DNA from: Chloroflexota bacterium
GTDB lineage: Bacteria > Chloroflexota > Dehalococcoidia > Lucifugimonadales > JADFKI01
Assembly: GCA_009840355.1 (NCBI GenBank)
Contig: VXNZ01000017.1
Span: forward strand, 925-64,924
Direction of reading: 5' to 3'
Length of the DNA: 64,000 nucleotides
The notes below the pieces were generated by a model. It ran no database searches. It was not told where the DNA came from and saw nothing but the letters and a program-made list of their open reading frames with translations. This document shows, piece after piece, positions 2,934 through 63,609 of this stretch (position 1 is the first letter of the stretch; the number at the start of each line of letters is the position of its first letter). A program made the position numbers and the translations under genes.

Positions 2934-3198
2934 TCGTCAATCCTCCATCGGTTAATCATCGTCACTCTTCCGTCTGCGCCAAAGCGCACTCGGTTGAAAT
3001 GATGGTATCAGCCAAGCGTCCCATGCACAAGAACAGCACTCCGAAATGAGAATATGCTCCACCGTGATTTCAATCGACCTATACCCTACCCTGCTTATCC
3101 GATATTCTTCAGCCCAACTCCACGCCTTGACCGATACTACCGAGTGCATATAATACGATTAAGTCATTCGTTAACTCTGCGTAAAGGAGCGTCTCACT

Positions 3199-4549: not shown

Positions 4550-5299
4550 ATGAGCAGGTTCGACGAACAGGTTGCGATAATAACGGGCGCCGCCACAGGC
4601 ATTGGCTATGGCATCGCGCGGCGGCTGGCATCAGAGGGCGCGCGCCTTGTGATGGTGGACATCGACAGCGAACTCGGCGAGCAGTCCGCAAGCGAAATCT
4701 CCGCACGCAGCAGCGACACGCGGCTGGTAATCGGCGATGTGTCGGAGCAAGCCACGGCGGACGCCGCTGTGCAAGCAGCGTTAGACGCTTGGGGGCGCAT
4801 TGACATCCTCGTGAACAACGCGGGCATTACCGGCATAGACGGCAACATCTGGGAGACAACTCTCGACGAGATGGACCGTGTGTATCGCATCAACTTGCGC
4901 GGCGTATTCGCGTTCTGCCACGCCGCAATACCCGCGATGCTAGAGCGCGACTACGGGCGCATCGTCAACATCGCGTCCATCGCCGGCAAGGAGGGCAACC
5001 CGCGCATGGTGCCCTACTCCGCGACCAAAGCAGCCGTCATCGGTCTCACAAAGTCGGTAGGCAAAGAACTCGCCAAGAGTGGCATCCGCGTTAACTGCGT
5101 TACGCCCGCAGTCGTGCACACACGCATCCTGGACGAACTCACGCCGGAGCAGGTGCAATACATGGTAGATCGCATTCCAATCGGCCGCACCGGCGAGATT
5201 GCCGAGATTGCTGCACTCGTCGCGTGGCTGGCGTCCGAAGAGTGCTCGTTCAGCACCGGCGGCGTATTCGACATCAGCGGCGGCAGGGCGACCTACTAG
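4550..5299 (+). CDS. SDR-family oxidoreductase (FabG-like)
   Basis: 249 aa. Contains the Rossmann TGAATGIGYGIA motif, NNAG, and the YSATKAAV catalytic Y-x-x-x-K. Confidence 0.9.
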   Translation: MSRFDEQVAIITGAATGIGYGIARRLASEGARLVMVDIDSELGEQSASEISARSSDTRLVIGDVSEQATADAAVQAALDAWGRIDILVNNAGITGIDGNIWETTLDEMDRVYRINLRGVFAFCHAAIPAMLERDYGRIVNIASIAGKEGNPRMVPYSATKAAVIGLTKSVGKELAKSGIRVNCVTPAVVHTRILDELTPEQVQYMVDRIPIGRTGEIAEIAALVAWLASEECSFSTGGVFDISGGRATY

Positions 5300-5374: not shown

Positions 5375-5929
5375 ATGCCGTGGATTCGTGAAGCGAACGA
5401 GCGTCTGCACTGGGCGAATGTCATCAACATTATGTCCATCAACCCCAAGGCGATGAAAGCCGTCAGCGACCTGAACAACGCGATCACTTTCGGCGCGTCC
5501 GCTCTCACTCGCACGCAGGAAGAGGCGATTGCGACCGCAGTATCCGTGCAGAATGAATGCCGCTTCTGAACGATGGCGCACGGGGAGTTTCTCCGTCACG
5601 AATCGGACGATCCGGGGTTGGCAAGCCATGTCATGCACGACTACCGTAACGCCGACCTTGAACCGCAGCTGCGCGCCATGCTCGACTACGCCACCAAGCT
5701 AACGCGCGAGCCGACGAACATGCAGGAAGCCGATGTCATCACCCTGCGCGAACACGGATTGTCGGATGAGCAGATTCTATCAGTCGCCCTGATCGCCTGC
5801 ACGTTCAATTTCATGACGCGGCTCGCAGACGGATTAGGCGTAGAAGTGCCGCAAGAACGCCAAGCGTATGTGGAGACTTGGCTCGACAGCCCTGCCCGCG
5901 ACCAAGAGTGGCTTATGAAGCAGAAGTAG
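5375..5929 (+). CDS. AhpD/carboxymuconolactone-decarboxylase-like 'peroxidase-related' protein, probable selenoprotein (in-frame UGA at 5567-5569)
   Basis: ORFs 5375..5569 and 5573..5929 share one frame and are separated only by TGA plus one codon. Read-through gives SVQNECRF-U-TMAHGEFL, which matches N-x-C-x-[YF]-C-x-x-x-H with TGA on the second Cys. An AGGA RBS lies 8 nt before 5375. Confidence 0.7.
5567..5569 (+). other. Candidate selenocysteine (UGA) codon in the CxxU motif of the AhpD-like gene
   Basis: TGA aligns with the second Cys of the family CxxC motif. An imperfect hairpin at 5580-5596 starts 11 nt downstream. Confidence 0.6.
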
Positions 5930-38450: not shown

Positions 38451-39620
38451 ATGAACTCACAATCCACCATGCCAGCAGCCTTCGTGCAGCGCATCCACGA
38501 CAGCGATATGATGGCGGTCATATCTGTCGCCGGTGCCGGCTCCGCGGCGATTTCGTGGCTGCTTGGCGTCGCAGGAGCGTCCCGCACCGTCCTCGAGATA
38601 CTCGTGCCGTATGCATCATCGTCGCTCACCGAGTTCGTGGGCGGAGAGCCACAGCAATTCGTATCCGAAGACACCGCGGTCGCAATGGCGAAATCCGCGT
38701 ACCGACGCGCGCTGCATCTTCGAGAAGGCAGCGCGCCCGTCGTCGGCATAGCGTGCACTGCTACCATCGCCACCGACCGCACCAAACGCGGCGACCATCG
38801 TTGCCACATCGCGGCTTGGAGCGCGGCGGGCGTTGCGACATACAATCTGACTTTCGTCAAAGAACTCCGTGACCGCGCCGGTGAAGATGCTTTGGCAAGT
38901 ATGCTAGTGCTGCGTGCGCTATCCGATGCGGCATGCTTGCCATTCGACGACGACCTGCATCTCGACACGACCGAGTACGTTGAAAGCAATAGCGTGCAAT
39001 ACGCCGATCCCATCGATGCGCTGATGGCAGGACATATTGGCAAGGCAGTCGTGCATCCTGACGGCAGCATGCGCGCAGACGAACCGTTTCATGGCGGCAT
39101 ATTATCCGGGTCGTTTAACCCGCTGCATGAAGGACACGCGGCAATGGTGAAGACGGCATCCGAAATGCTAGACAAACCGGTCGTCTATGAACTATCCGTC
39201 GCCAACGCTGACAAGCCACCGCTTGAAGCGGGCGAAGTGCGGCGCAGAGTAGCACAGTTCACCGGCGCTGCGCCAATCGTGCTAACCGGCGTGCCCGTGT
39301 TCTACAAGAAGGCGGACTTGCTACCCGGATGCACATTCATCATCGGCGTAGATACCGCAGTAAGGCTGTTTGACAAGAAGTATTACAGCAACAGCGAGAC
39401 CGAAATGCTGCTCGCCTTACAGCAGATGCGCGAACACGACTGCGACTTTTTGGTCGCAGGACGTGTCGATGGCAACACATTCCACACGCTCGCAGATGTC
39501 AGGATTCCGGACGGATTCGAGCCCATGTTTACCCCGATACCGGAGTCTGCGTTTCGCAGCGACATATCTTCCACTGAAATCAGAGCGGCTGGCGTATCGG
39601 GCAGCCGCGCCGCACAGTGA
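38451..39620 (+). CDS. Two-domain protein: divergent CinA/PncC-like domain plus nucleotidyltransferase (NadD/NMNAT-like, HxGH) domain
   Basis: Frame of ORF 38268..39620, starting at ATG 38451. The N-terminal half resembles the CinA C-domain (SVAGAGSAA...VPYASSS...FVSEDTAVAMA). The C-terminal half has GSFNPLHEGH and ISSTEIR, which are cytidylyltransferase-superfamily motifs. Confidence 0.7.
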   Translation: MNSQSTMPAAFVQRIHDSDMMAVISVAGAGSAAISWLLGVAGASRTVLEILVPYASSSLTEFVGGEPQQFVSEDTAVAMAKSAYRRALHLREGSAPVVGIACTATIATDRTKRGDHRCHIAAWSAAGVATYNLTFVKELRDRAGEDALASMLVLRALSDAACLPFDDDLHLDTTEYVESNSVQYADPIDALMAGHIGKAVVHPDGSMRADEPFHGGILSGSFNPLHEGHAAMVKTASEMLDKPVVYELSVANADKPPLEAGEVRRRVAQFTGAAPIVLTGVPVFYKKADLLPGCTFIIGVDTAVRLFDKKYYSNSETEMLLALQQMREHDCDFLVAGRVDGNTFHTLADVRIPDGFEPMFTPIPESAFRSDISSTEIRAAGVSGSRAAQ

Positions 39621-39624
39621 GCGC

Positions 39625-41082
39625 ATGAGCAATTACAAGGACTTGCGTGAGTTCGTCAGATTCCTTGAGCGCAAGGGCGAGTTGCGCCGCATAAAGACGC
39701 CCGTCAGCAGCGATCTGGAAATCACCGAGATTGCCAGTCGCGTCATCGCGAATGGCGGTCCCGCGCTGCTGTTCGAGAATGTTGACGGCGGAAACATCCC
39801 CGTTCTCATCAACATATTCGGCACGCACCAGCGCGTCGCCTGGGCACTCGGCGTGGACCATATCGACGAGTTGACTGACCGCGTTCGCAAGCTGCTCGGT
39901 CTCACGCAAGGTCCGCCGGCCGGCATCGTCAACAAACTCAAGACCGTTGGCGATCTGGCAGGGCTTGCGCGCAGTCAGCCGAAGATGGTCAAGAGCGCGC
40001 CGTGCCAAGAAGTCGTGCTCACCGGGGATGACGCAGATGTGAACGCATTCCCCATCATCAAGTGCTGGCCGCTTGATGGTGGGCGATACATCACCCTGCC
40101 CCTTGTCATATCGCGCGACCCAACATCCGGGCGGCGCAATGTCGGCACCTACCGGATGCAGGTGTTCGACGGCAAGACGATGGGCATGCACTGGCAGTCG
40201 CACAAGGTCGGCGCGCGGCACTTCCGCGACGGCGAAGAGCGCAGGCTAGACCGTCTCGATGTCGCGGTTGCGCTCGGCGGCGACCCTACGACGATATGGA
40301 CCGGCTCAATGCCGCTGCCGCCGGATATGGACGAGATAGCGGCGTCCGGCGTCATTCGCGGCAAGGCGGTCGAGATGGTCAAGTGCAAGACCATCGACCT
40401 TGAAGCGCCGGCGCACGCGGAAATCGTGCTAGAAGGCTATGTAGTGCCCGGCGAATTGCGACCGGAGGGTCCGTTTGGCGACCATACCGGCTACTATTCG
40501 ATGGAAGACGACTACCCGGTGTTCCATCTCACGGCGATAACGCACCGGCGCAATCCGATCTACCCCACGACATTCGTGGGCGTGCCGCCCAAGGAAGACT
40601 TCTTCATGGGCAAGGCGACGGAGCGCATCATGCTGCCCGCGCTGCAAGCGGCGTTGCCCGAAGTGAAGGATATCAACATGCCCGCCGAGGGCATATTCCA
40701 CAACCTCGTCATAGTATCCATCCGCAAGGAATACCCGGGACACGCGCGCAAGGTGATGAACGCGCTCTGGGGCTTAGGCTTGATGATGCTGACGAAAGTC
40801 ATCGTCATCGTCGATCACTATGTCGATGTGCAGGACCTGTCGGAAGTGGCTTGGCGCGTTACTGCAAATCTCGATCCGGGCGCTGACATCGTGTTCTCGG
40901 AAGGACCGCTAGACGACCTCGAACACGCCAGCGCAACGCCGCGGTATGGTACAAAGATGGGCATAGACGCAACCGCGAAGGGACGGCTGGACGGCCGCAA
41001 TCGCGAATGGCCACCCGACATCGTGATGAGCGAGGAAATCAAGTCACTCGTCGATTCCAAGTGGCGGGAGTACAAAATATGA
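39625..41082 (+). CDS. ubiD: UbiD-family (prFMN-dependent) decarboxylase
   Basis: Frame of ORF 39370..41082, starting at ATG 39625. Contains YKDLREFVRFLERKGELRRIK...LEITEI and GPFGDHTGYYS, typical of UbiD. Confidence 0.9.
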   Translation: MSNYKDLREFVRFLERKGELRRIKTPVSSDLEITEIASRVIANGGPALLFENVDGGNIPVLINIFGTHQRVAWALGVDHIDELTDRVRKLLGLTQGPPAGIVNKLKTVGDLAGLARSQPKMVKSAPCQEVVLTGDDADVNAFPIIKCWPLDGGRYITLPLVISRDPTSGRRNVGTYRMQVFDGKTMGMHWQSHKVGARHFRDGEERRLDRLDVAVALGGDPTTIWTGSMPLPPDMDEIAASGVIRGKAVEMVKCKTIDLEAPAHAEIVLEGYVVPGELRPEGPFGDHTGYYSMEDDYPVFHLTAITHRRNPIYPTTFVGVPPKEDFFMGKATERIMLPALQAALPEVKDINMPAEGIFHNLVIVSIRKEYPGHARKVMNALWGLGLMMLTKVIVIVDHYVDVQDLSEVAWRVTANLDPGADIVFSEGPLDDLEHASATPRYGTKMGIDATAKGRLDGRNREWPPDIVMSEEIKSLVDSKWREYKI

Positions 41083-41978
41083 ACGCGGCGGCAATCCCAA
41101 TTTCGGCAGCGCGAAAGATGGGCTTATTCATGGACGCCATCAGGTTTCAGGAAAGCATATTCGCCCTGCCCTTCGCATACACCGGCATGATTCTCGCGGC
41201 GTGGACCGCATCAGACGGCGCAACCTGGCATCCTACACTACACCAGTTCATCTGGATTACCGTCGCTATGGTAGGCGCGCGCACCGTCGGAATGGCGGCG
41301 AACCGCATCATCGACCGATACATTGACGCGCAGAACCCGCGCAACGCCGGCAGGCATTTGCCGTCGGGCAAGCTTTCCCTGCGCGATATGACGATCCTGA
41401 CAATCGCGGCGCTCTTCGTCTTCGTCTTCGCCGCCTACCAGCTGAATCCACTCGCGCTGATGCTCACGCCGGTCGCGGTCGCATATCTCATATTCTACCC
41501 GTACACCAAGCGCTTCACGTGGACATCGAACCTGCTGCTGGGCTGGGCGCTCGCCATCGCACCGTCCGCGGCGTGGATTGGCGTAACCGGCAGCCTCACT
41601 TGGCAGCCGGTCTTGCTGTCGCTTGCGGTGGCGCTGTGGGCAGGCAGCTTCGACATCCTGTATCATACGCAGGATTACGCATTCCAGAAGGAAGCGAGCT
41701 TACACTCGGTCGCGAGTCGCTTCGGCGTGCGCAGCGCGTTCTGCTGGGCGCGTGTGCTAGACCCGCTCGCGCTCGTCGCACTTCTCGCGCTTGGGCTATG
41801 GCTAGGCTTGAGTTGGCCATACTACATCGGCATCTTGCTCGCAGGCGGCTTTCTTGTGTATAAGCACCGGCTGGTCTCACCGGACGACCTATCCAGCCTT
41901 GGCATGGCGTTCTTCCGTATCAACGCCTACGTATCCACGACGATGTTCGTGGCAACCCTAGCAGCGGTGCTGATATGA
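41079..41978 (+). CDS. ubiA: UbiA-family aromatic prenyltransferase
   Basis: The ATG at 41079 overlaps the ubiD stop (ATGA). It is a polytopic protein with an NRIIDRYIDA motif (first Asp-rich motif) and DILYHTQDYAFQ (second motif). Confidence 0.85.
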   Translation: MNAAAIPISAARKMGLFMDAIRFQESIFALPFAYTGMILAAWTASDGATWHPTLHQFIWITVAMVGARTVGMAANRIIDRYIDAQNPRNAGRHLPSGKLSLRDMTILTIAALFVFVFAAYQLNPLALMLTPVAVAYLIFYPYTKRFTWTSNLLLGWALAIAPSAAWIGVTGSLTWQPVLLSLAVALWAGSFDILYHTQDYAFQKEASLHSVASRFGVRSAFCWARVLDPLALVALLALGLWLGLSWPYYIGILLAGGFLVYKHRLVSPDDLSSLGMAFFRINAYVSTTMFVATLAAVLI

Positions 41979-42607
41979 CACAGTTTCCCGTGACGAATCA
42001 AATTGCGCCAAATCATCCAGTCGTCATTGGCATCAGCGGCGCAAGCGGCTCGATGATTGCAAACGGCTTGATTGACGCGGTATTGCAGAGCGGCATACCC
42101 GTCATCGCGACCGCTTCCAACGCCGCGCGGATGGTCTGGCAACAAGAAATGGACACTTCGTTCGGCGAGGCGCTTGAGTATTGGCGCGATTTGGGCGATT
42201 TCACCTATTGCGCGCCGGGCGACATTCAATCGCCGATTGCGAGCGGTTCGTTCCCCACGCGGGGCATGGTCATCGCGCCGTGCAGCATGTCAACTGTCGC
42301 CGCCCTTGCGCACGGATTCGCCGACAATCTGATTCGCCGCGCCGCCGACGTCTGCCTGAAAGAACGCCGTCCGCTGACCATCGTGCCGCGCGAGACGCCG
42401 CTCAGCGCCATTCACCTCGAGAATATGGCGGCGCTCTCGCGGCTTGGCGTAACGGTCTTGCCGCCGGAACCGCCTTTCTACCTGAAGCCGAAATCGCTGG
42501 ACGATGTGGCGAATTATGTTGTGCAGAAGGCACTGGTTAGTATCGGATTGATTGCCGCTCTTCCGCAAAGCATGCAATACGACGGACCAGCTCGACCATC
42601 AGGATAA
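41975..42607 (+). CDS. ubiX: UbiX-family flavin prenyltransferase
   Basis: The ATG at 41975 overlaps the ubiA stop (ATGA). Contains VIGISGASG, MVIAPCSMSTVAALAHG and VPRETPL. Confidence 0.9.
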   Translation: MTQFPVTNQIAPNHPVVIGISGASGSMIANGLIDAVLQSGIPVIATASNAARMVWQQEMDTSFGEALEYWRDLGDFTYCAPGDIQSPIASGSFPTRGMVIAPCSMSTVAALAHGFADNLIRRAADVCLKERRPLTIVPRETPLSAIHLENMAALSRLGVTVLPPEPPFYLKPKSLDDVANYVVQKALVSIGLIAALPQSMQYDGPARPSG

Positions 42608-59832: not shown

Positions 59833-61209
59833 ATGAGACAGGCAGACAGAACGATTTTCGTCCGGGCCCCTATGCCCTTACTATTGGTCGGGCTATTCCT
59901 GGCGCTGTTCACGATAACGGCGTGCACCAGCGCGCCAGCCGCGCAGGTCGATGCCGATGCAGCCGCCTTGACTAACACCGGCAATACCGCACATGGTCAA
60001 GCCGAGACAACACAAGCGTCATGGCAGGGATCCAACGACACGGCAGGTTCAGTGCAAGCACAACCGGAATCGCCGTCGGCAAATAATTCCAACACTGCGA
60101 CTACGGTCGAACTAGACGCCGACAGCGTTGTAGCCGCGTACGAAAAGGTCATCGGCGATGTGCACGATAATGTGTTGCCGTCGGTCGTCAGCATCTTCGT
60201 GTTGAATCGCGTTGAATTTACCGGACAGATTCCGAGCATCCCGTCTCCCTTCCCGTTTGGACAGACCACTCCACCAAGCGGTGATTCTAAGCAGGACTTT
60301 TTCTACCGCAACGGACAAGGATCGGGCTTCGTCTGGGACACTGAAGGGCACATCGTAACGAACCGGCATGTTGTCGCGGATGCCGAGCGCATCACGGTCG
60401 TGTTCTCGGACGGCAGCGAAACGGACGCAGAAGTTGTGGGCATGGACGATGATTCGGACTTGGCGGTGATTAAGATTGACCGCGATGCCGAACTCTTGCA
60501 GCCCGTAACGCTCGGCGACAGCAATGCCGTGCGCGTCGGGCAGCTCGCCATCACCATCGGCAATCCATTCGGGCAGGAGTTCTCCACGACCACGGGCATT
60601 GTGAGCGCCATCGGCCGCACCCTGCGCGCCGGCGAATCACTCTTTTCGCTGCCGAAGGTGATACAGACGGACGCGCCGATGAACCCCGGCAATTCCGGCG
60701 GGCCTTTGCTCGACAGGCGGGGCCAGGTCATCGGCATTGACGCGCAGATTATCACGCGGTCAGGCGCGAACACCGGCATAGGATTCGCCATCCCCGTCAA
60801 CATCGCCAAGCAGGTGGTGCCGGAACTCATCAGCAGCGGCACATTTACCTACTCGTGGCTGGGCATCCGCGGCACTGACATTCGTGCCGAGACTGCAGAG
60901 TTGATGGGCGCGCCTGCGGATACTCGCGGCGCTCTGGTGATTGCGCTCGCGGACGGCGGACCTGCGCAAAAGGCGGGTCTGCTCGGCAGCACCAGGTCAA
61001 TGCAGACCGACGAAGGCAGCATCCGATACGGCGGCGATGTGATAACGGCAGTGGACGACAACCCCATCGGCGGCATGAACGACCTAATCATCTATCTGCT
61101 GGAGAATACGCGCCCGGGCGACGCCGTCAGGGTCAGCGTCGTGCGAGATGGCGGCGAAGTAACGCACTTGTGGGTTACCCTTGAGCCGCGCCCTCAAGCA
61201 CCGAACTAG
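59833..61209 (+). CDS. HtrA/DegP-family serine protease with PDZ domain, lipobox N-terminus
   Basis: 458 aa. It has the signal/lipobox LFTITAC, a low-complexity linker, the catalytic triad contexts TNRHVV, DSDLAVIK and NPGNSGGPL, and a C-terminal PDZ domain. Confidence 0.9.
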   Translation: MRQADRTIFVRAPMPLLLVGLFLALFTITACTSAPAAQVDADAAALTNTGNTAHGQAETTQASWQGSNDTAGSVQAQPESPSANNSNTATTVELDADSVVAAYEKVIGDVHDNVLPSVVSIFVLNRVEFTGQIPSIPSPFPFGQTTPPSGDSKQDFFYRNGQGSGFVWDTEGHIVTNRHVVADAERITVVFSDGSETDAEVVGMDDDSDLAVIKIDRDAELLQPVTLGDSNAVRVGQLAITIGNPFGQEFSTTTGIVSAIGRTLRAGESLFSLPKVIQTDAPMNPGNSGGPLLDRRGQVIGIDAQIITRSGANTGIGFAIPVNIAKQVVPELISSGTFTYSWLGIRGTDIRAETAELMGAPADTRGALVIALADGGPAQKAGLLGSTRSMQTDEGSIRYGGDVITAVDDNPIGGMNDLIIYLLENTRPGDAVRVSVVRDGGEVTHLWVTLEPRPQAPN

Positions 61210-61327: not shown

Positions 61328-62020
61328 ATGAAAATCAGAACTACGCTATTCCTGCTGCTGGGGCTAGTTGCGGCTGTTTCAGCAATAATTGGTTGCGGGT
61401 CGGCGCCGGCAGTATCGCAGCCGAGCGAACCGGCGAACATCCCTGACGCTGCGCCGCAAGCAAGTGAACCGGCGCCCCCAGAACCGTCTCAACCCGTCAC
61501 CACTATGTTTCAAGCCGATTCCGAACCGCCGAAGGTAACACAGCCGATGGCGAGTGAGCCGGAAGCTGCGCCTGTCGAAGTCGGCTATAAGGTGGGCATG
61601 ATGGCGCCCGAGTTCGGGATGAGCCTGTACGACGGCACGAGGGTTACGTCCGCGAGCCTCGCCGAGCAAGGCAAGCCCACCTTCATCTATTTCCACGCGA
61701 CTTGGTGAGGCACCTGCCGCGTCGAGTTACGGCGCATCAAGGAAGAGATTGGCGCAAGCTACAACGACCAAGTCGCAATCTACATCGTCGGCACGGACCC
61801 GTCCGAGAGCGTCGAAAAGCTGGAAGCCGATAGGGAACGTGAGAGCTTGCCATACGCCACCGCATACGCGGACGAAGGCATGCTGGAGACTCTGAAAATC
61901 TACACGCAGGCATCCAAAATCGCCCTAGACAGCGACGGCATCATCACGCACCGCTACGGTTTCGGCAAGGGCGACTTCGAGAACTGGGGCGACCTGTTCG
62001 CTGACATCGCCGCCAACTAA
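61328..62020 (+). CDS. TlpA/ResA-like thioredoxin-fold thiol:disulfide oxidoreductase lipoprotein, probable selenoprotein (in-frame UGA at 61706-61708)
   Basis: ATG 61328 gives MKIRTTLFLLLGLVAAVSAIIGC (lipobox). The ORF track stops at TGA 61706. The same frame stays open for 103 more codons to TAA 62018-62020. The junction KPTFIYFHATW-U-GTCRVE matches FWATW-C-G-P-C-R. Confidence 0.75.
61706..61708 (+). other. Candidate selenocysteine (UGA) codon in the UxxC motif of the thioredoxin-fold gene
   Basis: TGA occupies the first Cys of WCGxC. The downstream in-frame sequence completes a thioredoxin fold. Confidence 0.65.
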
Positions 62021-62106: not shown

Positions 62107-63609
62107 TTAAGCGCCGTCTTCGCCCTGATACAAGATGGTATCCGGCTTAAACACTGCCCACGCGAACCAGAAGTGATTGCCGTGGACTACGGGCGTTAGC
62201 TTCTTGCCTGCTAGCGGACCGTCGGTCGCGTTGCCGAAAATATCCCACGCGCTGCCGGTCTGGTCGTCCACTATACGGTCCTCCTCTGCGCCGAAAGTCA
62301 GCGTCTGCCCGTCTAGCACTGCATCGAACACGCCCGCGGCGCCGACATCGCGCGATTCGGCTATCGCGCTTGCGTCCAGCGCAGACGTCGTGCCAAACTT
62401 GTGAAACACCGCTATCTGACGCTCGCCAACCTCGTAGTTGATAACGCGCTCTTCCTGCAACACCGATAGCGGGAACGCCAAATCCACGCCATCCATGCTC
62501 ACGGCGATGACACGCTCAACCGGCAGCAGCCTGCCATCTAGGTCGCCGTTAAACAGGAACGGATTGCCGTCGTATGTATCGTATCCGGCGTATGGATTGC
62601 GACCGTACTGCCGCGTGAAGCCCGTTTCGCGCGACAGTACCTTGCCGTCCGGATGCGCACGACTGAAGTCGGCGAACGACACGATGGACGCAGGGAGATA
62701 TTCCAGCATGCGCCCGGCGTGTTCGCCGACGATGCCCTCGCCCGTGAACTGCTGCCACCACGTATGCGTCTGCCGGTCGTACATAATCAGGTCCGAGTTG
62801 CGCAGGTTGCCGGATACGCCGAATTCCAGCACTTCGCCGTCCAACCGCCTGTCGAACGCTATCGCCGAATTGCAAAGCGGGCAGAATGTCACGGAGACCG
62901 GCACGCCGCCCACAGTATCGTTGACAATCTCGTGCCAAGTAAGAATCTGCAGCGGATAAGCGCGCGCATCGCCGTCGATGTCAAGCGACACCACCGGCTC
63001 CACATCCTTTAGCCACGCCGCCTCAGACGGCGCGACGAACTTGGGCACGTCTATCGAAGGTATATTGTCACGCGGAATGACGAACCTAATCTGGCTGTAC
63101 GGCACAGTGTGAAGGCTGAAGTCGGTGTCCCATCCATTCGTACTGAGCCGTGCGGCATTCAGCGCCCGCTCGTAATCCGGGTCCGGCGTTACGCTACTCC
63201 GCTCGCTATCCGTAGTCACTATTGGCGCAGCAGTCGGAACCGGCTGTGTATCGGGCGTTGGCGAGGTGGTGATAGTCCCAGCCATCTGTTGCAGCGGGGC
63301 AGAAGTTGCAGTCGGAATTGCAACGGTTGTCGGCTCGACTGTTGGCAATGTCTGCGCTGGCGCGCTGCGCGATGGGGATTGCACACTAGGCGCTGTTACA
63401 GCAGACTGAGTTGCTGTGCTATCAGTTTTGGCGCGCGCCGCTGCGTCCGCAGCAGCCGGTGATGCCGAAATCGGAGCGGGCTGGCTTTGCGCCGGCGCTG
63501 CCGCAGTCTCCGTCGCAGTATGTCCGCAAGCAGCGAATATGACGCCGCCCAGAATGAACAATCCGACATAGACTAAGCGTCTTCCAATCCAAGTAAATCT
63601 GAGTGGCAA
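62107..63609 (-). CDS. DUF3179 domain lipoprotein (conserved CPLC motif)
   Basis: 500 aa with a TTG start. It has the lipobox VIFAACG and a long Ala/Pro/Thr-rich tether. The DUF3179-like core follows (IPSIDVPKF, YPLQILTWHEIVND, VTFCPLCNS, LIMYDRQTHTWWQQ). Confidence 0.8.
   Translation of the reverse strand: MPLRFTWIGRRLVYVGLFILGGVIFAACGHTATETAAAPAQSQPAPISASPAAADAAARAKTDSTATQSAVTAPSVQSPSRSAPAQTLPTVEPTTVAIPTATSAPLQQMAGTITTSPTPDTQPVPTAAPIVTTDSERSSVTPDPDYERALNAARLSTNGWDTDFSLHTVPYSQIRFVIPRDNIPSIDVPKFVAPSEAAWLKDVEPVVSLDIDGDARAYPLQILTWHEIVNDTVGGVPVSVTFCPLCNSAIAFDRRLDGEVLEFGVSGNLRNSDLIMYDRQTHTWWQQFTGEGIVGEHAGRMLEYLPASIVSFADFSRAHPDGKVLSRETGFTRQYGRNPYAGYDTYDGNPFLFNGDLDGRLLPVERVIAVSMDGVDLAFPLSVLQEERVINYEVGERQIAVFHKFGTTSALDASAIAESRDVGAAGVFDAVLDGQTLTFGAEEDRIVDDQTGSAWDIFGNATDGPLAGKKLTPVVHGNHFWFAWAVFKPDTILYQGEDGA

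What the first reader, a model, noticed from the sequence alone, without database searches (positions are those of the whole stretch)
61328..62020. Exported thioredoxin-fold (TlpA/ResA-like) lipoprotein with UGA in place of the first Cys of WCGxC: probable extracytoplasmic selenoprotein
The tracked ORF ends at TGA 61706-61708 right after ...GKPTFIYFHATW. The same frame then continues without any stop for 103 codons to TAA 62018-62020. It reads GTCRVELRRIKEEIGASYNDQVAIYIVGTDPSESVEKLEADRERESLPYATAY...GIITHRYGFGKGDFENW. The junction FHATW-[TGA]-GTCR matches the thiol:disulfide oxidoreductase motif F-W-A-T-W-C-G-P-C-R, with the TGA on the nucleophilic Cys (U-x-x-C). The downstream part supplies the rest of the thioredoxin fold, which the truncated ORF lacks. 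The N-terminus (from ATG 61328) is a lipoprotein signal (LVAAVSAIIGC) followed by a Pro/Glu/Ala-rich tether. The selenol would therefore be displayed outside the cytoplasmic membrane. I see only a weak GC stem (about 61715-61734) downstream, so SECIS support from my reading is poor.
Basis: partly seen in the sequence, partly recalled or inferred. Interest (0 to 1): 0.8.

Follow-up and report, generated by a model that had tools for sequence, protein, structure and literature searches.

The report
Exported selenocysteine thioredoxin-like lipoprotein, SAR202
This is one real gene for a membrane-anchored, outward-facing thiol-disulfide enzyme. Its key cysteine is most likely replaced by selenocysteine, encoded by a UGA "stop" that gene finders misread. 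It is a well-supported example of an already known kind of marine selenoprotein.

Summary
ATG 61328 to TAA 62020 is one 230-residue reading frame interrupted only by TGA 61706-61708. That TGA sits where TlpA/ResA-type oxidoreductases have the first Cys of W-C-x-x-C.

Comparative evidence is strong:
- All 15 database homologs stop at this codon.
- All 12 metagenome loci and all 51 Dehalococcoidia/SAR202 genome loci carry TGA there.
- More distant relatives carry TGT or TGC.
- The 103 downstream codons are conserved, with mainly third-position changes.

A 6-bp hairpin with an AGUUR loop (61719-61735) lies 10 nt after the UGA. It covaries, its synonymous sites are frozen, and its geometry resembles the E. 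coli fdhF SECIS.

Other support:
- TGA ends neighbouring genes, so the genetic code is standard.
- A second known-family selenoprotein gene (AhpD-like, TGA 5567) lies in the same window.
- The read-through protein models as a ResA-like thioredoxin fold (pLDDT 95, TM 0.80).
- A conserved lipobox precedes the domain.

The Sec machinery could not be checked in this genome. The literature lists marine Dehalococcoidia among the most selenoprotein-rich bacteria.

UxxC TlpA-like and Prx-like selenoproteins have been catalogued since 2005, so this is a new member of a known kind. Its main practical value is correcting an annotation error.

The parts
61328..62020 (+). Complete selenoprotein coding sequence: 230 residues, with TGA 61706-61708 read as Sec127 and TAA 62018-62020 as the true stop
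   Evidence: frame. (same architecture in 63 loci). (third-position-dominated divergence on both sides of the TGA).
61328..61396 (+). Lipoprotein signal peptide ending in the lipobox I-I-G-C (Cys23 is the predicted lipidated first residue of the mature protein)
   Evidence: Gly22 and Cys23 are invariant in alignment A1. A lipobox is present in 53 of 65 distinct family N-termini, and the rest have a VQIGC variant or a hydrophobic anchor. This is pattern-based, since no dedicated predictor was available.
61397..61573 (+). Low-complexity Pro/Glu/Ala/Gln-rich tether (residues 24-82)
   Evidence: variable in length and sequence among homologs, with no Pfam match.
61574..62017 (+). TlpA/ResA-like thioredoxin-fold domain (residues 83-230)
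   Evidence: Pfam AhpC-TSA 43.2 bits and Redoxin 32.4 bits, both above their cut-offs and spanning residues 88-209. AlphaFold model pLDDT 95.0, pTM 0.90. Foldseek: ResA 4nmu TM 0.80-0.81 at 2.3 Å, then TlpA and CcmG. PDB profile search: 2yp6 7.9e-28, ResA 1.7e-27.
61706..61717 (+). Active-site motif U-G-T-C: TGA (Sec127), GGC, ACC, TGC (Cys130)
   Evidence: TGA is present in 63/63 family loci, and TGT or TGC in the distant relatives L064-L076. In the model this residue sits between strand 36-41 and helix 47-59 of the domain, the canonical thioredoxin active-site position.
61719..61735 (+). SECIS-like hairpin: 5' arm GCGUCG (61719-61724), loop AGUUA (61725-61729), 3' arm CGGCGC (61730-61735). 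A 10-nt spacer separates it from the UGA.
   Evidence: RNAalifold predicts exactly this helix on 55 sequences. It is 95.1% paired versus 25-59% for slid controls, and 4 of 6 pairs show double changes. Codon use in the hairpin is GAG 55/55, TTR 55/55 and CGG 50/53, against 53%, 17% and 10% elsewhere in the domain. The register matches E. coli fdhF to within 1-2 nt.
59833..61209 (+). Upstream HtrA/DegP-type serine protease (Trypsin_2 + PDZ). A conserved same-strand neighbour and possibly co-transcribed.
   Evidence: Pfam. The same neighbour occurs in L003, L005, L007 and L008 and in 16 of 51 genome loci. No terminator-like site lies in the 118-nt gap. Co-transcription is an inference.
5375..5929 (+). 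Context: a second selenoprotein gene in the window. It is AhpD-like, has the motif C-R-F-U-T-M-A-H with TGA at 5567-5569, and has its own hairpin starting at +14.
   Evidence: frame. TIGR01926 3.4e-37, 128 bits against a cut-off of 81.8, aligned across the TGA. Hairpin with a GUU loop at +21 to +23. The family is listed as a CxxU selenoprotein in PMC13188914.

Best explanation
Window 61328-62020 is a single gene from a SAR202-type Dehalococcoidia (Chloroflexota) bacterium. It encodes a lipid-anchored, outward-facing thiol:disulfide oxidoreductase of the TlpA/ResA/CcmG class. Its nucleophilic active-site residue is selenocysteine (motif W-U-G-T-C).

During translation, the hairpin at 61719-61735, 10 nt downstream of UGA 61706-61708, is bound by SelB carrying Sec-tRNA(Sec). 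The UGA is then decoded as Sec instead of ending the protein (inferred from the sequence features). The signal peptide directs export. Cys23 is lipidated, and a flexible Pro/Glu/Ala tether holds the thioredoxin domain at the outer face of the cytoplasmic membrane (inferred from motifs). There the selenol/thiol pair U127/C130 reduces or isomerises disulfides, or other oxidised cysteines, in envelope proteins. This may be linked to the co-located HtrA protease in envelope protein quality control (inferred from homology and synteny). Electrons presumably come from a CcdA/DsbD-type membrane protein encoded elsewhere in the genome (not found here).

Shown: the reading frame, Sec/Cys pairing, hairpin conservation and covariation, the fold, and conservation of the lipobox. 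Inferred: actual selenium insertion, lipidation, substrate, and electron donor.
For: - **Frame and codon:** an in-frame TGA with 103 conserved downstream codons. TGA is present in 12/12 metagenome and 51/51 genome loci, spanning 31-98% identity. The loci were retrieved with peptide patterns that do not include the Sec site.
- **Gene calls:** all 15 database gene calls are truncated at this codon.
- **Selection:** substitutions by codon position are 312/192/761 upstream and 913/646/1852 downstream.
- **Cys homologs:** Cys sits at the aligned position in more distant relatives.
- **Hairpin:** 95% paired, 4 of 6 pairs with double changes, predicted independently by RNAalifold.
- **Synonymous freeze:** GAG, TTR and CGG are fixed in the hairpin. 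Cys-type relatives vary in this peptide, and one uses CTC with no hairpin.
- **Independent of the peptide:** a Sec-type domain with a different peptide (C-R-A-A-L-R) still forms a 7-bp hairpin in the same register.
- **Geometry:** close to the E. coli fdhF SECIS.
- **Standard code:** TGA ends 9 of 43 Pfam-supported genes in the window, including RuvA and the methyltransferase next door.
- **Second selenoprotein gene:** an AhpD-like gene of a known selenoprotein family, with a hairpin in the same register.
- **Lineage:** Dehalococcoidia MAGs are among the ten most selenoprotein-rich bacteria, and the database includes only species with the Sec pathway (PMC13326102).
- **Fold and class:**
- **Lipobox:**
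Against: - No selA, selB, selD or tRNA-Sec was found in the window or in about 0.6 Mb of related loci. That is a small sample of any one genome, so this is absence of evidence only.
- No Rfam SECIS family matches.
- The hairpin's stem is short (6 bp). In the window's own clade the lower helix seen in the U-P-T-C clade is weak.
- The canonical cis-Pro of thioredoxin folds is Ala in this protein (QASK), so catalysis may differ from ResA or TlpA.
- No redox partner (CcdA/DsbD, Msr, cytochrome c maturation) lies in the window or recurs as a neighbour.
- There is no experimental evidence of selenium in any member.
Confidence: 0.88

Rival explanations
1. UGA 61706 is read through, but not as selenocysteine. 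Instead Cys, Trp or Gly would be inserted by a suppressor or near-cognate tRNA, or by SelB delivering a non-Sec aminoacyl-tRNA. The result would be an ordinary CxxC-type or inactive protein.
For: The Sec machinery was not seen directly, and there are no protein-level data. Nothing else points this way.
Against: TGA works as a true stop for 9 of 43 annotated genes in the window, which excludes global reassignment. The recoded TGA sits exactly at the catalytic Cys position in two unrelated redox families in this window, which is the signature of Sec. A SelB-type hairpin lies at the correct distance. The lineage is reported as Sec-utilising and selenoprotein-rich. If Cys were the goal, a single TGA-to-TGY change would achieve it, yet 63 of 63 loci keep TGA.
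Confidence: 0.05
2. The locus encodes two separate products, as gene callers annotate it. These would be a truncated 126-residue lipoprotein ending at the TGA, plus an independently initiated C-terminal peptide of about 97 residues. Alternatively it is a pseudogene or a sequencing error.
For: Public gene calls split it this way in every homolog examined. In many homologs a TTG codon 19 nt after the TGA was taken as a start.
Against: In the window that codon is TTA (TTA in 13 of 55 sequences), which cannot initiate. The first possible in-frame start in the window is at 61847. Neither half can form a thioredoxin fold alone, because the Pfam and structural matches span the TGA. The stop is always TGA and never TAA or TAG, at one exact codon, across sequences down to 31% identity. 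More than 60 independent assemblies rule out a sequencing error. The downstream frame is under purifying selection in phase with the upstream frame.
Confidence: 0.02
3. The protein is a selenoprotein, but it works as a peroxidase (peroxiredoxin-like or GPx-like). It would detoxify peroxides at the cell surface instead of acting as a protein-disulfide reductase or isomerase.
For: The best Pfam match is AhpC-TSA. Such proteins are catalogued as 'Prx-like' selenoproteins. From general knowledge, a selenol is an excellent peroxide reductant and resists irreversible over-oxidation, which would suit an exposed enzyme in oxic seawater. The atypical non-Pro residue at the cis-Pro position hints at a departure from classic substrate binding.
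Against: The motif is W-U-x-x-C at the start of helix 1, like thioredoxin, TlpA and ResA. It is not the PxxxTxxC/U of true peroxiredoxins. In the selenoprotein table, Prx has TxxU whereas this protein has UxxC. The closest sequences and structures are ResA, StoA, CcmG, TlpA, MPT53 and DsbF. True peroxiredoxins such as Bcp rank lower.
Confidence: 0.12

Closest known systems
[quoted passage not shown]
   Same: The domain type is the same (PF00578 and PF08534 hits above their cut-offs). The UxxC motif has Sec at the N-terminal Cys position. The habitat is marine. Status is prediction only. A GOS 'Prx-like' selenoprotein even shares the hairpin-coding peptide W-U-P-P-C-R-S-E-L-R.
   Different: This family's signature, YFHAT[WYF]-U-[GP]-[TS]-C, was not found in the stored (truncated) part of the GOS sequence supplement. 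No NCBIfam selenoprotein model covers it. Here the family is tied to SAR202/Dehalococcoidia, has a conserved lipobox and tether, occurs as 2-3 paralogs per genome including tandem arrays, and carried TGA in all 63 loci sampled. I could not compare it directly with the catalogued representative accessions.
ResA / StoA (Bacillus), CcmG/DsbE (E. coli), TlpA (Bradyrhizobium), MPT53/DsbE and DsbF (Mycobacterium): extracytoplasmic, membrane-tethered thioredoxin-like reductases
   Same: The fold matches (Foldseek TM 0.77-0.81 to ResA, 0.68-0.72 to CcmG, 0.69 to TlpA). The profile matches (ResA 1.7e-27). The active-site position and W-x-x-x-C context match. All are exported or membrane-anchored.
   Different: Those proteins use Cys-x-x-Cys, whereas this one has Sec-Gly-Thr-Cys. 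They keep a cis-Pro, whereas this one has Ala (QASK). Their genes usually sit with cytochrome c maturation, Sco or sporulation genes, whereas this one sits beside htrA and DUF3179. Sequence identity is only about 17-27%.
PDB 2yp6, 4hqz and 4hqs 'thioredoxin family protein'. From memory, these are the surface-exposed thioredoxin-family lipoproteins Etrx1/Etrx2 of Streptococcus pneumoniae, which feed extracellular methionine sulfoxide reductase.
   Same: 2yp6 is the best sequence-profile match in the PDB (7.9e-28). The alignment includes its own lipoprotein signal...LVVLMAC-GEE. It has the same lipobox, linker and TlpA-like domain architecture in a cell with a single membrane.
   Different: It has a Cys-based active site. 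No Msr or CcdA gene lies near the SAR202 gene. The identification of these PDB entries as Etrx rests on my memory and was not verified with a tool.
E. coli fdhF SECIS (the experimentally defined bacterial Sec insertion element)
   Same: It is a hairpin inside the coding sequence directly after the UGA. In fdhF the upper stem starts at +15 and the loop GGUC at +22 to +25 has GU at +23/+24. Here the stem starts at +14 and the loop AGUUA at +20 to +24 has GU at +21/+22. The U-P-T-C clade also has a lower helix starting at the A of the UGA, as fdhF does.
   Different: The upper stem is shorter and has no bulged U. The window's clade lacks a convincing lower helix. No Rfam model matches. Binding by the cognate SelB is untested.

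Membership tests
Bacterial selenoprotein gene (UGA-Sec recoding) | In-frame UGA with a conserved, selected coding frame continuing downstream | tested here: met
   103 downstream codons are conserved in all complete loci. Substitutions by codon position are 913/646/1852 downstream and 312/192/761 upstream.
Bacterial selenoprotein gene (UGA-Sec recoding) | UGA aligns with Cys (usually a redox-active Cys) in homologs | tested here: met
   (L064-L076: W-C-x-x-C with TGT or TGC). (P0016-P0033: W-C-P-x-C at 35-44% identity).
Bacterial selenoprotein gene (UGA-Sec recoding) | SECIS stem-loop directly downstream of the UGA, with a G/U-containing apical loop at the right distance | tested here: met
   a covarying 6-bp stem, an invariant AGUU loop, a 10-nt spacer (fdhF has 11 nt), and frozen synonymous sites. 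Caveat: no Rfam SECIS model matches, and SelB binding is untested.
Bacterial selenoprotein gene (UGA-Sec recoding) | selA, selB, selC (tRNA-Sec) and selD present in the same genome | not testable with these tools
   None are in the 64-kb window or in about 0.6 Mb of related loci, and whole genomes could not be scanned. Indirect support: a second selenoprotein gene in the window, and BSepDB lists Dehalococcoidia MAGs with 46-49 selenoprotein genes among species that have the Sec pathway.
Bacterial selenoprotein gene (UGA-Sec recoding) | Selenium demonstrated in the protein | not testable with these tools
   This needs 75Se labelling or mass spectrometry.
TlpA/ResA/CcmG-like extracytoplasmic thiol:disulfide oxidoreductases (cd02966; Pfam AhpC-TSA / Redoxin) | Thioredoxin fold of the TlpA/ResA type, with profile scores above the curated cut-offs | tested here: met
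   AhpC-TSA 43.2 bits (cut-off 26) and Redoxin 32.4 bits (cut-off 26.6), with Cys substituted for the TGA. Model pLDDT 95. ResA TM 0.80, rmsd 2.3 Å.
TlpA/ResA/CcmG-like extracytoplasmic thiol:disulfide oxidoreductases (cd02966; Pfam AhpC-TSA / Redoxin) | C-x-x-C active site at the N-terminus of helix 1, preceded by Trp | tested here: met
   The motif is W-U-G-T-C, with Sec in place of the first Cys. It lies between strand 36-41 and helix 47-59 of the modelled domain.
TlpA/ResA/CcmG-like extracytoplasmic thiol:disulfide oxidoreductases (cd02966; Pfam AhpC-TSA / Redoxin) | Export signal or membrane anchor that places the domain outside the cytoplasm | tested here: met
   Lipobox I-I-G-C after a hydrophobic stretch, with Gly22 and Cys23 invariant. 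A lipobox or anchor is present across 65 family N-termini. This is pattern-based only, with no dedicated predictor.
TlpA/ResA/CcmG-like extracytoplasmic thiol:disulfide oxidoreductases (cd02966; Pfam AhpC-TSA / Redoxin) | Conserved cis-proline loop facing the active site | tested here: not met
   The window protein has Ala (T-Q-A-S-K) at the position aligned to the Pro of 2yp6 and ResA. Most family members have Ala or Ser and only a few have Pro. So this is a variant of the class, not a textbook member.
TlpA/ResA/CcmG-like extracytoplasmic thiol:disulfide oxidoreductases (cd02966; Pfam AhpC-TSA / Redoxin) | Membrane electron donor (CcdA/DsbD) and a defined substrate pathway (cytochrome c maturation, Sco, Msr) | tested here: inconclusive
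   None are in the window or among recurrent neighbours. The rest of the genome was not searched.
True peroxiredoxins (AhpC/Bcp/Tpx) | Peroxidatic Cys or Sec in a P-x-x-x-T-x-x-C/U motif | tested here: not met
   The sequence has H-A-T-W-U-G-T-C, and no PxxxTxxC motif is present. Selenoprotein Prx is listed as TxxU, whereas this protein is UxxC. Peroxiredoxin structures rank below ResA and TlpA.
Catalogued selenoprotein families 'Prx-like thiol:disulfide oxidoreductase' and 'Thiol-disulfide isomerase-like (cd02966)' | PF00578/cd02966-type domain with a UxxC motif, clustering with the published representatives | tested here: inconclusive
   Domain and motif criteria are met. Direct comparison with representatives WP_010940744.1 and MGB1650493.1 was not possible. 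The family's signature peptide is absent from the stored, truncated GOS supplement.

The most novel reading that the evidence does not exclude
The SAR202/Dehalococcoidia lipoproteins may form a distinct family that always uses Sec, with no Cys form among the 63 loci sampled. The family has expanded to 2-3 or more copies per genome, some in tandem or fused as two-domain proteins. On this reading it would give these abundant, oxygen-exposed deep-ocean and sponge bacteria a selenol-based redox surface outside the cytoplasmic membrane. Its role could go beyond housekeeping disulfide reduction, for example peroxide or oxidised-organic-matter detoxification, or repair of surface proteins together with HtrA. 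It would also make envelope function directly dependent on selenium supply.
Probability: 0.15. Interest if true: 0.6.

Novelty: new member of a known kind. Interest (0 to 1): 0.35.

Why it matters
**Annotation.** Every public gene call I examined for this family (15 of 15, including an NCBI genome) is cut at the UGA, and the C-terminal half is either called as a separate 97-residue ORF or lost. No NCBIfam model covers the family. So a widespread SAR202 gene family is systematically mis-annotated and invisible to function prediction.

**Biology.** This adds a well-supported, lineage-wide case to the picture of marine Dehalococcoidia as heavy selenium users. It places a selenol on the outside of the membrane of an aerobic or micro-oxic ocean bacterium.

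**SECIS model.** The alignment of 55 natural hairpin variants shows covariation and frozen synonymous sites. Cys-type relatives serve as a contrast. Together these make a compact data set for refining bacterial SECIS models for Chloroflexota.

None of this overturns current understanding. Thioredoxin-fold UxxC selenoproteins, including exported ones, have been predicted in marine metagenomes since 2005.

Tried and rejected
- **Rfam.** The gathering-threshold scan of the whole window and a permissive scan of 61600-61900 found no SECIS or other relevant RNA family.
- **tRNA-Sec.** ARAGORN found none in the window or in 57 related loci.
- **Sec machinery.** tblastn with E. coli SelA, SelB and SelD against the window and all fetched loci found nothing. 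This is uninformative, because only a small part of any genome was available.
- **Literature.** A search for 'selenoprotein' plus 'SAR202' returned no papers.
- **GOS supplement.** The family signature was not found, but the stored file is truncated.
- **Structure prediction.** I used Cys-type relatives returned by the database search instead.
- **Promoter and terminator scan.** The scan around the gene gave nothing above the shuffled expectation.
- **Redox partners.** Pfam annotation of about 50 window genes and a 102-protein neighbour census found no CcdA/DsbD, Msr or cytochrome c maturation genes.
- **Other in-frame TGAs.** A window-wide scan for TGA-joined ORF pairs gave only two credible cases, 5567 and 61706. 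The rest were off-frame artefacts of a GC-rich genome or adjacent genes.
- **Rejected readings.** I considered and rejected an alternative genetic code (code 4 or 25), a sequencing error, a pseudogene and a split gene. The reasons are given under the rival explanations.
Full report
**1. The observation**

The ATG is at 61328. The N-terminus reads MKIRTTLFLLLGLVAAVSAIIGC and is followed by a Pro/Glu/Ala-rich stretch. The sequence ...GKPTFIYFHATW runs into TGA 61706-61708. The same frame then continues for 103 codons (GTCRVELRRIKEEIG...DLFADIAAN) to TAA 62018-62020. With Cys substituted for the TGA, Pfam AhpC-TSA (43.2 bits, cut-off 26) and Redoxin (32.4 bits, cut-off 26.6) align across residues 88-209, on both sides of codon 127. 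No NCBIfam model reaches its cut-off. The best are DsbE, ResA, StoA and TlpA models at E-values of 1e-8 to 1e-2.

**2. Is it more than chance, an error or a pseudogene?**

A search of 5.8 billion proteins returned 15 homologs at 37-98% identity. Every one ends at ...FHAT[W/F/Y], the residue before the TGA.

I fetched the DNA of 12 of these loci. All have TGA at that codon, never TAA, TAG or a sense codon. Wherever the contig is long enough, the frame stays open for exactly 103 more codons that encode a conserved protein.

A scan of one genome per GTDB species gave 51 further loci in 42 assemblies. All are titled Dehalococcoidia, SAR202 cluster or Chloroflexota, and all carry TGA at this codon. 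The scan used peptide patterns that lie upstream of the Sec site, so it was not biased towards TGA. The 13 more distant hits from other phyla carry W-C-x-x-C encoded by TGT or TGC.

Between homologs, substitutions fall mainly on third codon positions. The proportions are the same upstream (312/192/761) and downstream (913/646/1852) of the TGA. The downstream frame is therefore translated, in phase with the upstream part.

The exhaustive HMMER search found full-length Cys-type relatives at 35-44% identity (W-C-P-x-C-R). They have the same lipobox, linker and domain layout, and their sources name them 'thiol-disulfide isomerase/thioredoxin'.

**3. Genetic code**

TGA ends RuvA (58829) and the methyltransferase (59613) immediately upstream. 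It also ends 9 of 43 Pfam-supported genes in the window (TAG 18, TAA 16). The recoding is therefore site-specific, not a reassigned code.

**4. The SECIS question**

In an ungapped alignment of 55 distinct sequences from the TGA to +57, RNAalifold predicts a single helix: columns 14-19 paired with 25-30, with a five-base loop. In the window this is GCGUCG (61719-61724), AGUUA (61725-61729) and CGGCGC (61730-61735).

| Measure | Result |
|---|---|
| Cells forming a standard pair | 95.1% |
| Same measure with the 3' partner slid by 1-3 columns | 25-59% |
| Pairs with changes on both sides | 4 of 6 |
| Pair 16-28 | GC in 26 sequences, UA in 18 |
| Shuffles reaching the observed covariation score | 0 of 500 |

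The hairpin overlaps the conserved peptide x-E-L-R-x, so I tested synonymous sites.

| Codon | In the hairpin | Elsewhere in the domain |
|---|---|---|
| Glu | GAG in 55/55 | 53% GAG |
| Leu | TTR in 55/55 | 17% TTR |
| Arg | CGG in 50/53 | 10% CGG |

Other invariant amino-acid columns vary freely at the third position.

Cys-type relatives vary in this peptide (ELK, ELA, EMT, DLT). One of them uses CTC for Leu and has no hairpin. In the same gene (L097), a second, TGA-type domain with a different peptide (C-R-A-A-L-R) forms a 7-bp hairpin, GCGCCGC-GUU-GCGGCGC, in the same register. So the constraint acts on the RNA.

Compared with E. coli fdhF, which I fetched and folded, the design is the same and shifted by 1-2 nt:

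| Feature | E. coli fdhF | This gene |
|---|---|---|
| Start of upper stem | +15 | +14 |
| Loop | GGUC at +22 to +25 | AGUUA at +20 to +24 |
| Position of loop GU | +23/+24 | +21/+22 |

That G23 and U24 are the bases critical for SelB binding is from memory of the literature. The U-P-T-C clade adds a 9-bp lower helix that starts at the A of the UGA, as fdhF does. No Rfam family matches.

**5. Does the organism decode Sec?**

I could not test this directly. No tRNA-Sec, SelA, SelB or SelD is found in the window or the related loci, but that sample is too small to mean anything. There are two indirect supports.

First, the window holds a second in-frame-TGA gene at 5375-5929. It matches the AhpD-like family TIGR01926 (3.4e-37, above its cut-off) across its TGA, in the motif C-R-F-U-T-M-A-H. 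That family is listed as a CxxU selenoprotein (PMC13188914). Its TGA is followed by a hairpin that starts at +14 with a GUU loop at +21 to +23, the same register as here.

Second, BSepDB includes only species that have the Sec pathway. It ranks two Dehalococcoidia MAGs, with 49 and 46 selenoprotein genes, among the ten richest bacteria (PMC13326102). One of them is named in the same style as the MAGs that carry this family.

**6. What the protein is**

An AlphaFold model of residues 83-230 is confident (pLDDT 95.0, pTM 0.90). It was built with an alignment of Cys-type relatives. Position 127 lies between a beta strand and the first long helix, the canonical thioredoxin active site.

Foldseek ranks ResA-type thiol-disulfide oxidoreductases first (4nmu TM 0.80-0.81, rmsd 2.3 Å; B. 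subtilis ResA 0.77-0.78). TlpA, CcmG, MPT53 and similar proteins follow. The family profile matches PDB 2yp6 (7.9e-28) and ResA (1.7e-27). 2yp6 is a thioredoxin-family protein whose own N-terminus is a lipoprotein signal.

Gly22 and Cys23 of the lipobox are invariant. Of 65 distinct family N-termini, 53 have a canonical lipobox, and the rest have a VQIGC variant or a hydrophobic anchor.

The protein is therefore an exported, membrane-tethered TlpA/ResA-class oxidoreductase with U-G-T-C in place of C-x-x-C. One departure from the class is that the cis-Pro position is Ala (QASK). In most relatives it is Ser or Ala.

**7. Context and function**

The window's gene content is typical of SAR202: CoA-transferase III, luciferase-like monooxygenase, MFS transporters, short-chain dehydrogenases and enolase-superfamily relatives.

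The gene follows an HtrA/DegP-type protease on the same strand. The gap is 118 nt and has no terminator-like site. It converges on a DUF3179 gene. The order YebC-RuvC-RuvA-methyltransferase-HtrA-[this gene]-DUF3179 recurs in L003, L004 and L008. L007 shows the same order from the methyltransferase onward, because its contig begins there. HtrA and DUF3179 flank 16 and 15 of the 51 genome loci respectively, which are the window's orthologous clade.

No CcdA/DsbD, Msr or cytochrome c maturation gene is nearby.

Many genomes have two unlinked paralogs, the U-G-[TS]-C type and the U-P-T-C type. Some carry tandem arrays of two or three (L056, L057, L061) or a two-domain fusion (L097).

The most likely role is reduction or isomerisation of disulfides in envelope proteins, possibly coupled to HtrA-mediated quality control. 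A peroxidase role is a minority alternative.

**8. Comparison with what is known, and novelty**

Thioredoxin-fold UxxC selenoproteins are among the most abundant predicted selenoproteins in marine metagenomes. The catalogued families include:

- 'Prx-like 1' (pfam00578, UxxC; 225 sequences in GOS)
- 'Prx-like 3' (pfam08534)
- 'Thiol-disulfide isomerase-like' (cd02966, the TlpA-like family)
- 'Thiol:disulfide interchange protein'

These are listed in PMC2398784, PMC1794560 and PMC13188914. Exported selenoproteins are also already predicted, for example DsbA-like, DsbG-like, substrate-binding proteins and outer-membrane proteins.

This gene is therefore a new, or at least not explicitly described, member of a known kind. 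What is specific to it:

- the SAR202 lineage
- the conserved lipoprotein architecture
- TGA in all 63 loci sampled
- expansion into multiple paralogs
- the non-Pro residue at the cis-Pro position
- an unusually clean comparative data set for its SECIS

No paper in the searchable library links selenoproteins with SAR202.

**9. Verdict**

The finding is real but not surprising to a specialist. Its main value is correcting the annotation and documenting a lineage-wide, cell-surface selenoenzyme family. Interest is 0.35.

Noticed in passing
window 5375-5929 (TGA 5567-5569): A second selenoprotein candidate lies in the window. It is an AhpD-like / peroxidase-related protein (TIGR01926, 3.4e-37) with an in-frame TGA in the motif C-R-F-U-T-M-A-H. 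A 7-bp hairpin follows, starting at +14 with a GUU loop at +21 to +23. The family is already listed as a CxxU selenoprotein.
   Followed up: partly
window, 43 Pfam-supported genes: Stop-codon usage is TAG 18, TAA 16 and TGA 9. TGA is the least used stop in a 58% GC genome, where it is usually common. This might relate to heavy use of UGA for Sec.
   Followed up: no
L057 (TGA at 3127, 3779, 5352); L056 (3130, 4167); L061 (3211, 4779): These loci carry tandem arrays of two or three paralogous TGA-containing thioredoxin-like genes within 3 kb. Each has its own hairpin. Some copies have a lipobox and others an N-terminal membrane anchor.
   Followed up: partly
L097 4001-5140 (protein P0016 plus read-through): One open reading frame holds two thioredoxin domains. 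The first is Cys-type (W-C-P-I-C, Leu codon CTC, no hairpin). The second is TGA-type (TGA at 4823) with a 7-bp hairpin GCGCCGC-GUU-GCGGCGC, even though its peptide is C-R-A-A-L-R and not C-R-x-E-L-R.
   Followed up: partly
L096 4001-4567 (protein P0017): This Cys-type relative (TGT) still has GAG-TTG-CGG after the active site, but its stem has a U-C mismatch. It may be a decaying SECIS left by a Sec-to-Cys switch. The gene is surrounded by DDE transposase genes.
   Followed up: no
window 61916-61927 (T-Q-A-S); family alignments A1 and A3: The cis-proline that is almost universal in thioredoxin folds is Ala here, and Ser or Ala in most Sec-type and Cys-type relatives (QASK, QSTK). Only a few members keep Pro (L003 HPSK, L006 QPSK).
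   Followed up: partly
GOS supplement of PMC2398784 (file 3): A different 'Prx-like' selenoprotein from surface-ocean reads has a long C-terminal hydrophobic extension. It contains W-U-P-P-C-R-S-E-L-R-S/G, the same peptide that encodes the hairpin in the U-P-T-C clade. This suggests that distinct marine selenoprotein families share one type of SECIS.
   Followed up: no
L001, L002, L009 and other U-P-T-C clade loci (TGA +0 to +48): In the U-P-T-C paralog clade, a 9-bp lower helix pairs the A of the UGA and the next 8 nt with positions +40 to +48, enclosing the conserved hairpin (predicted energy -20 to -25 kcal/mol). The window's U-G-T-C clade lacks this helix.
   Followed up: partly
window 62107-63609 (- strand) and 15 of 51 related loci: A 500-residue DUF3179 protein with an N-terminal extension of about 180 residues is the conserved convergent neighbour of the selenoprotein gene. 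Its function is unknown.
   Followed up: no
window 39370-42607: A UbiD - UbiA - flavoprotein (UbiX-like) gene cluster is present. Elsewhere the window holds typical SAR202 paralog families: CoA-transferase III, luciferase-like monooxygenase, NHL/SGL beta-propellers, DUF1800 and DUF3500.
   Followed up: no
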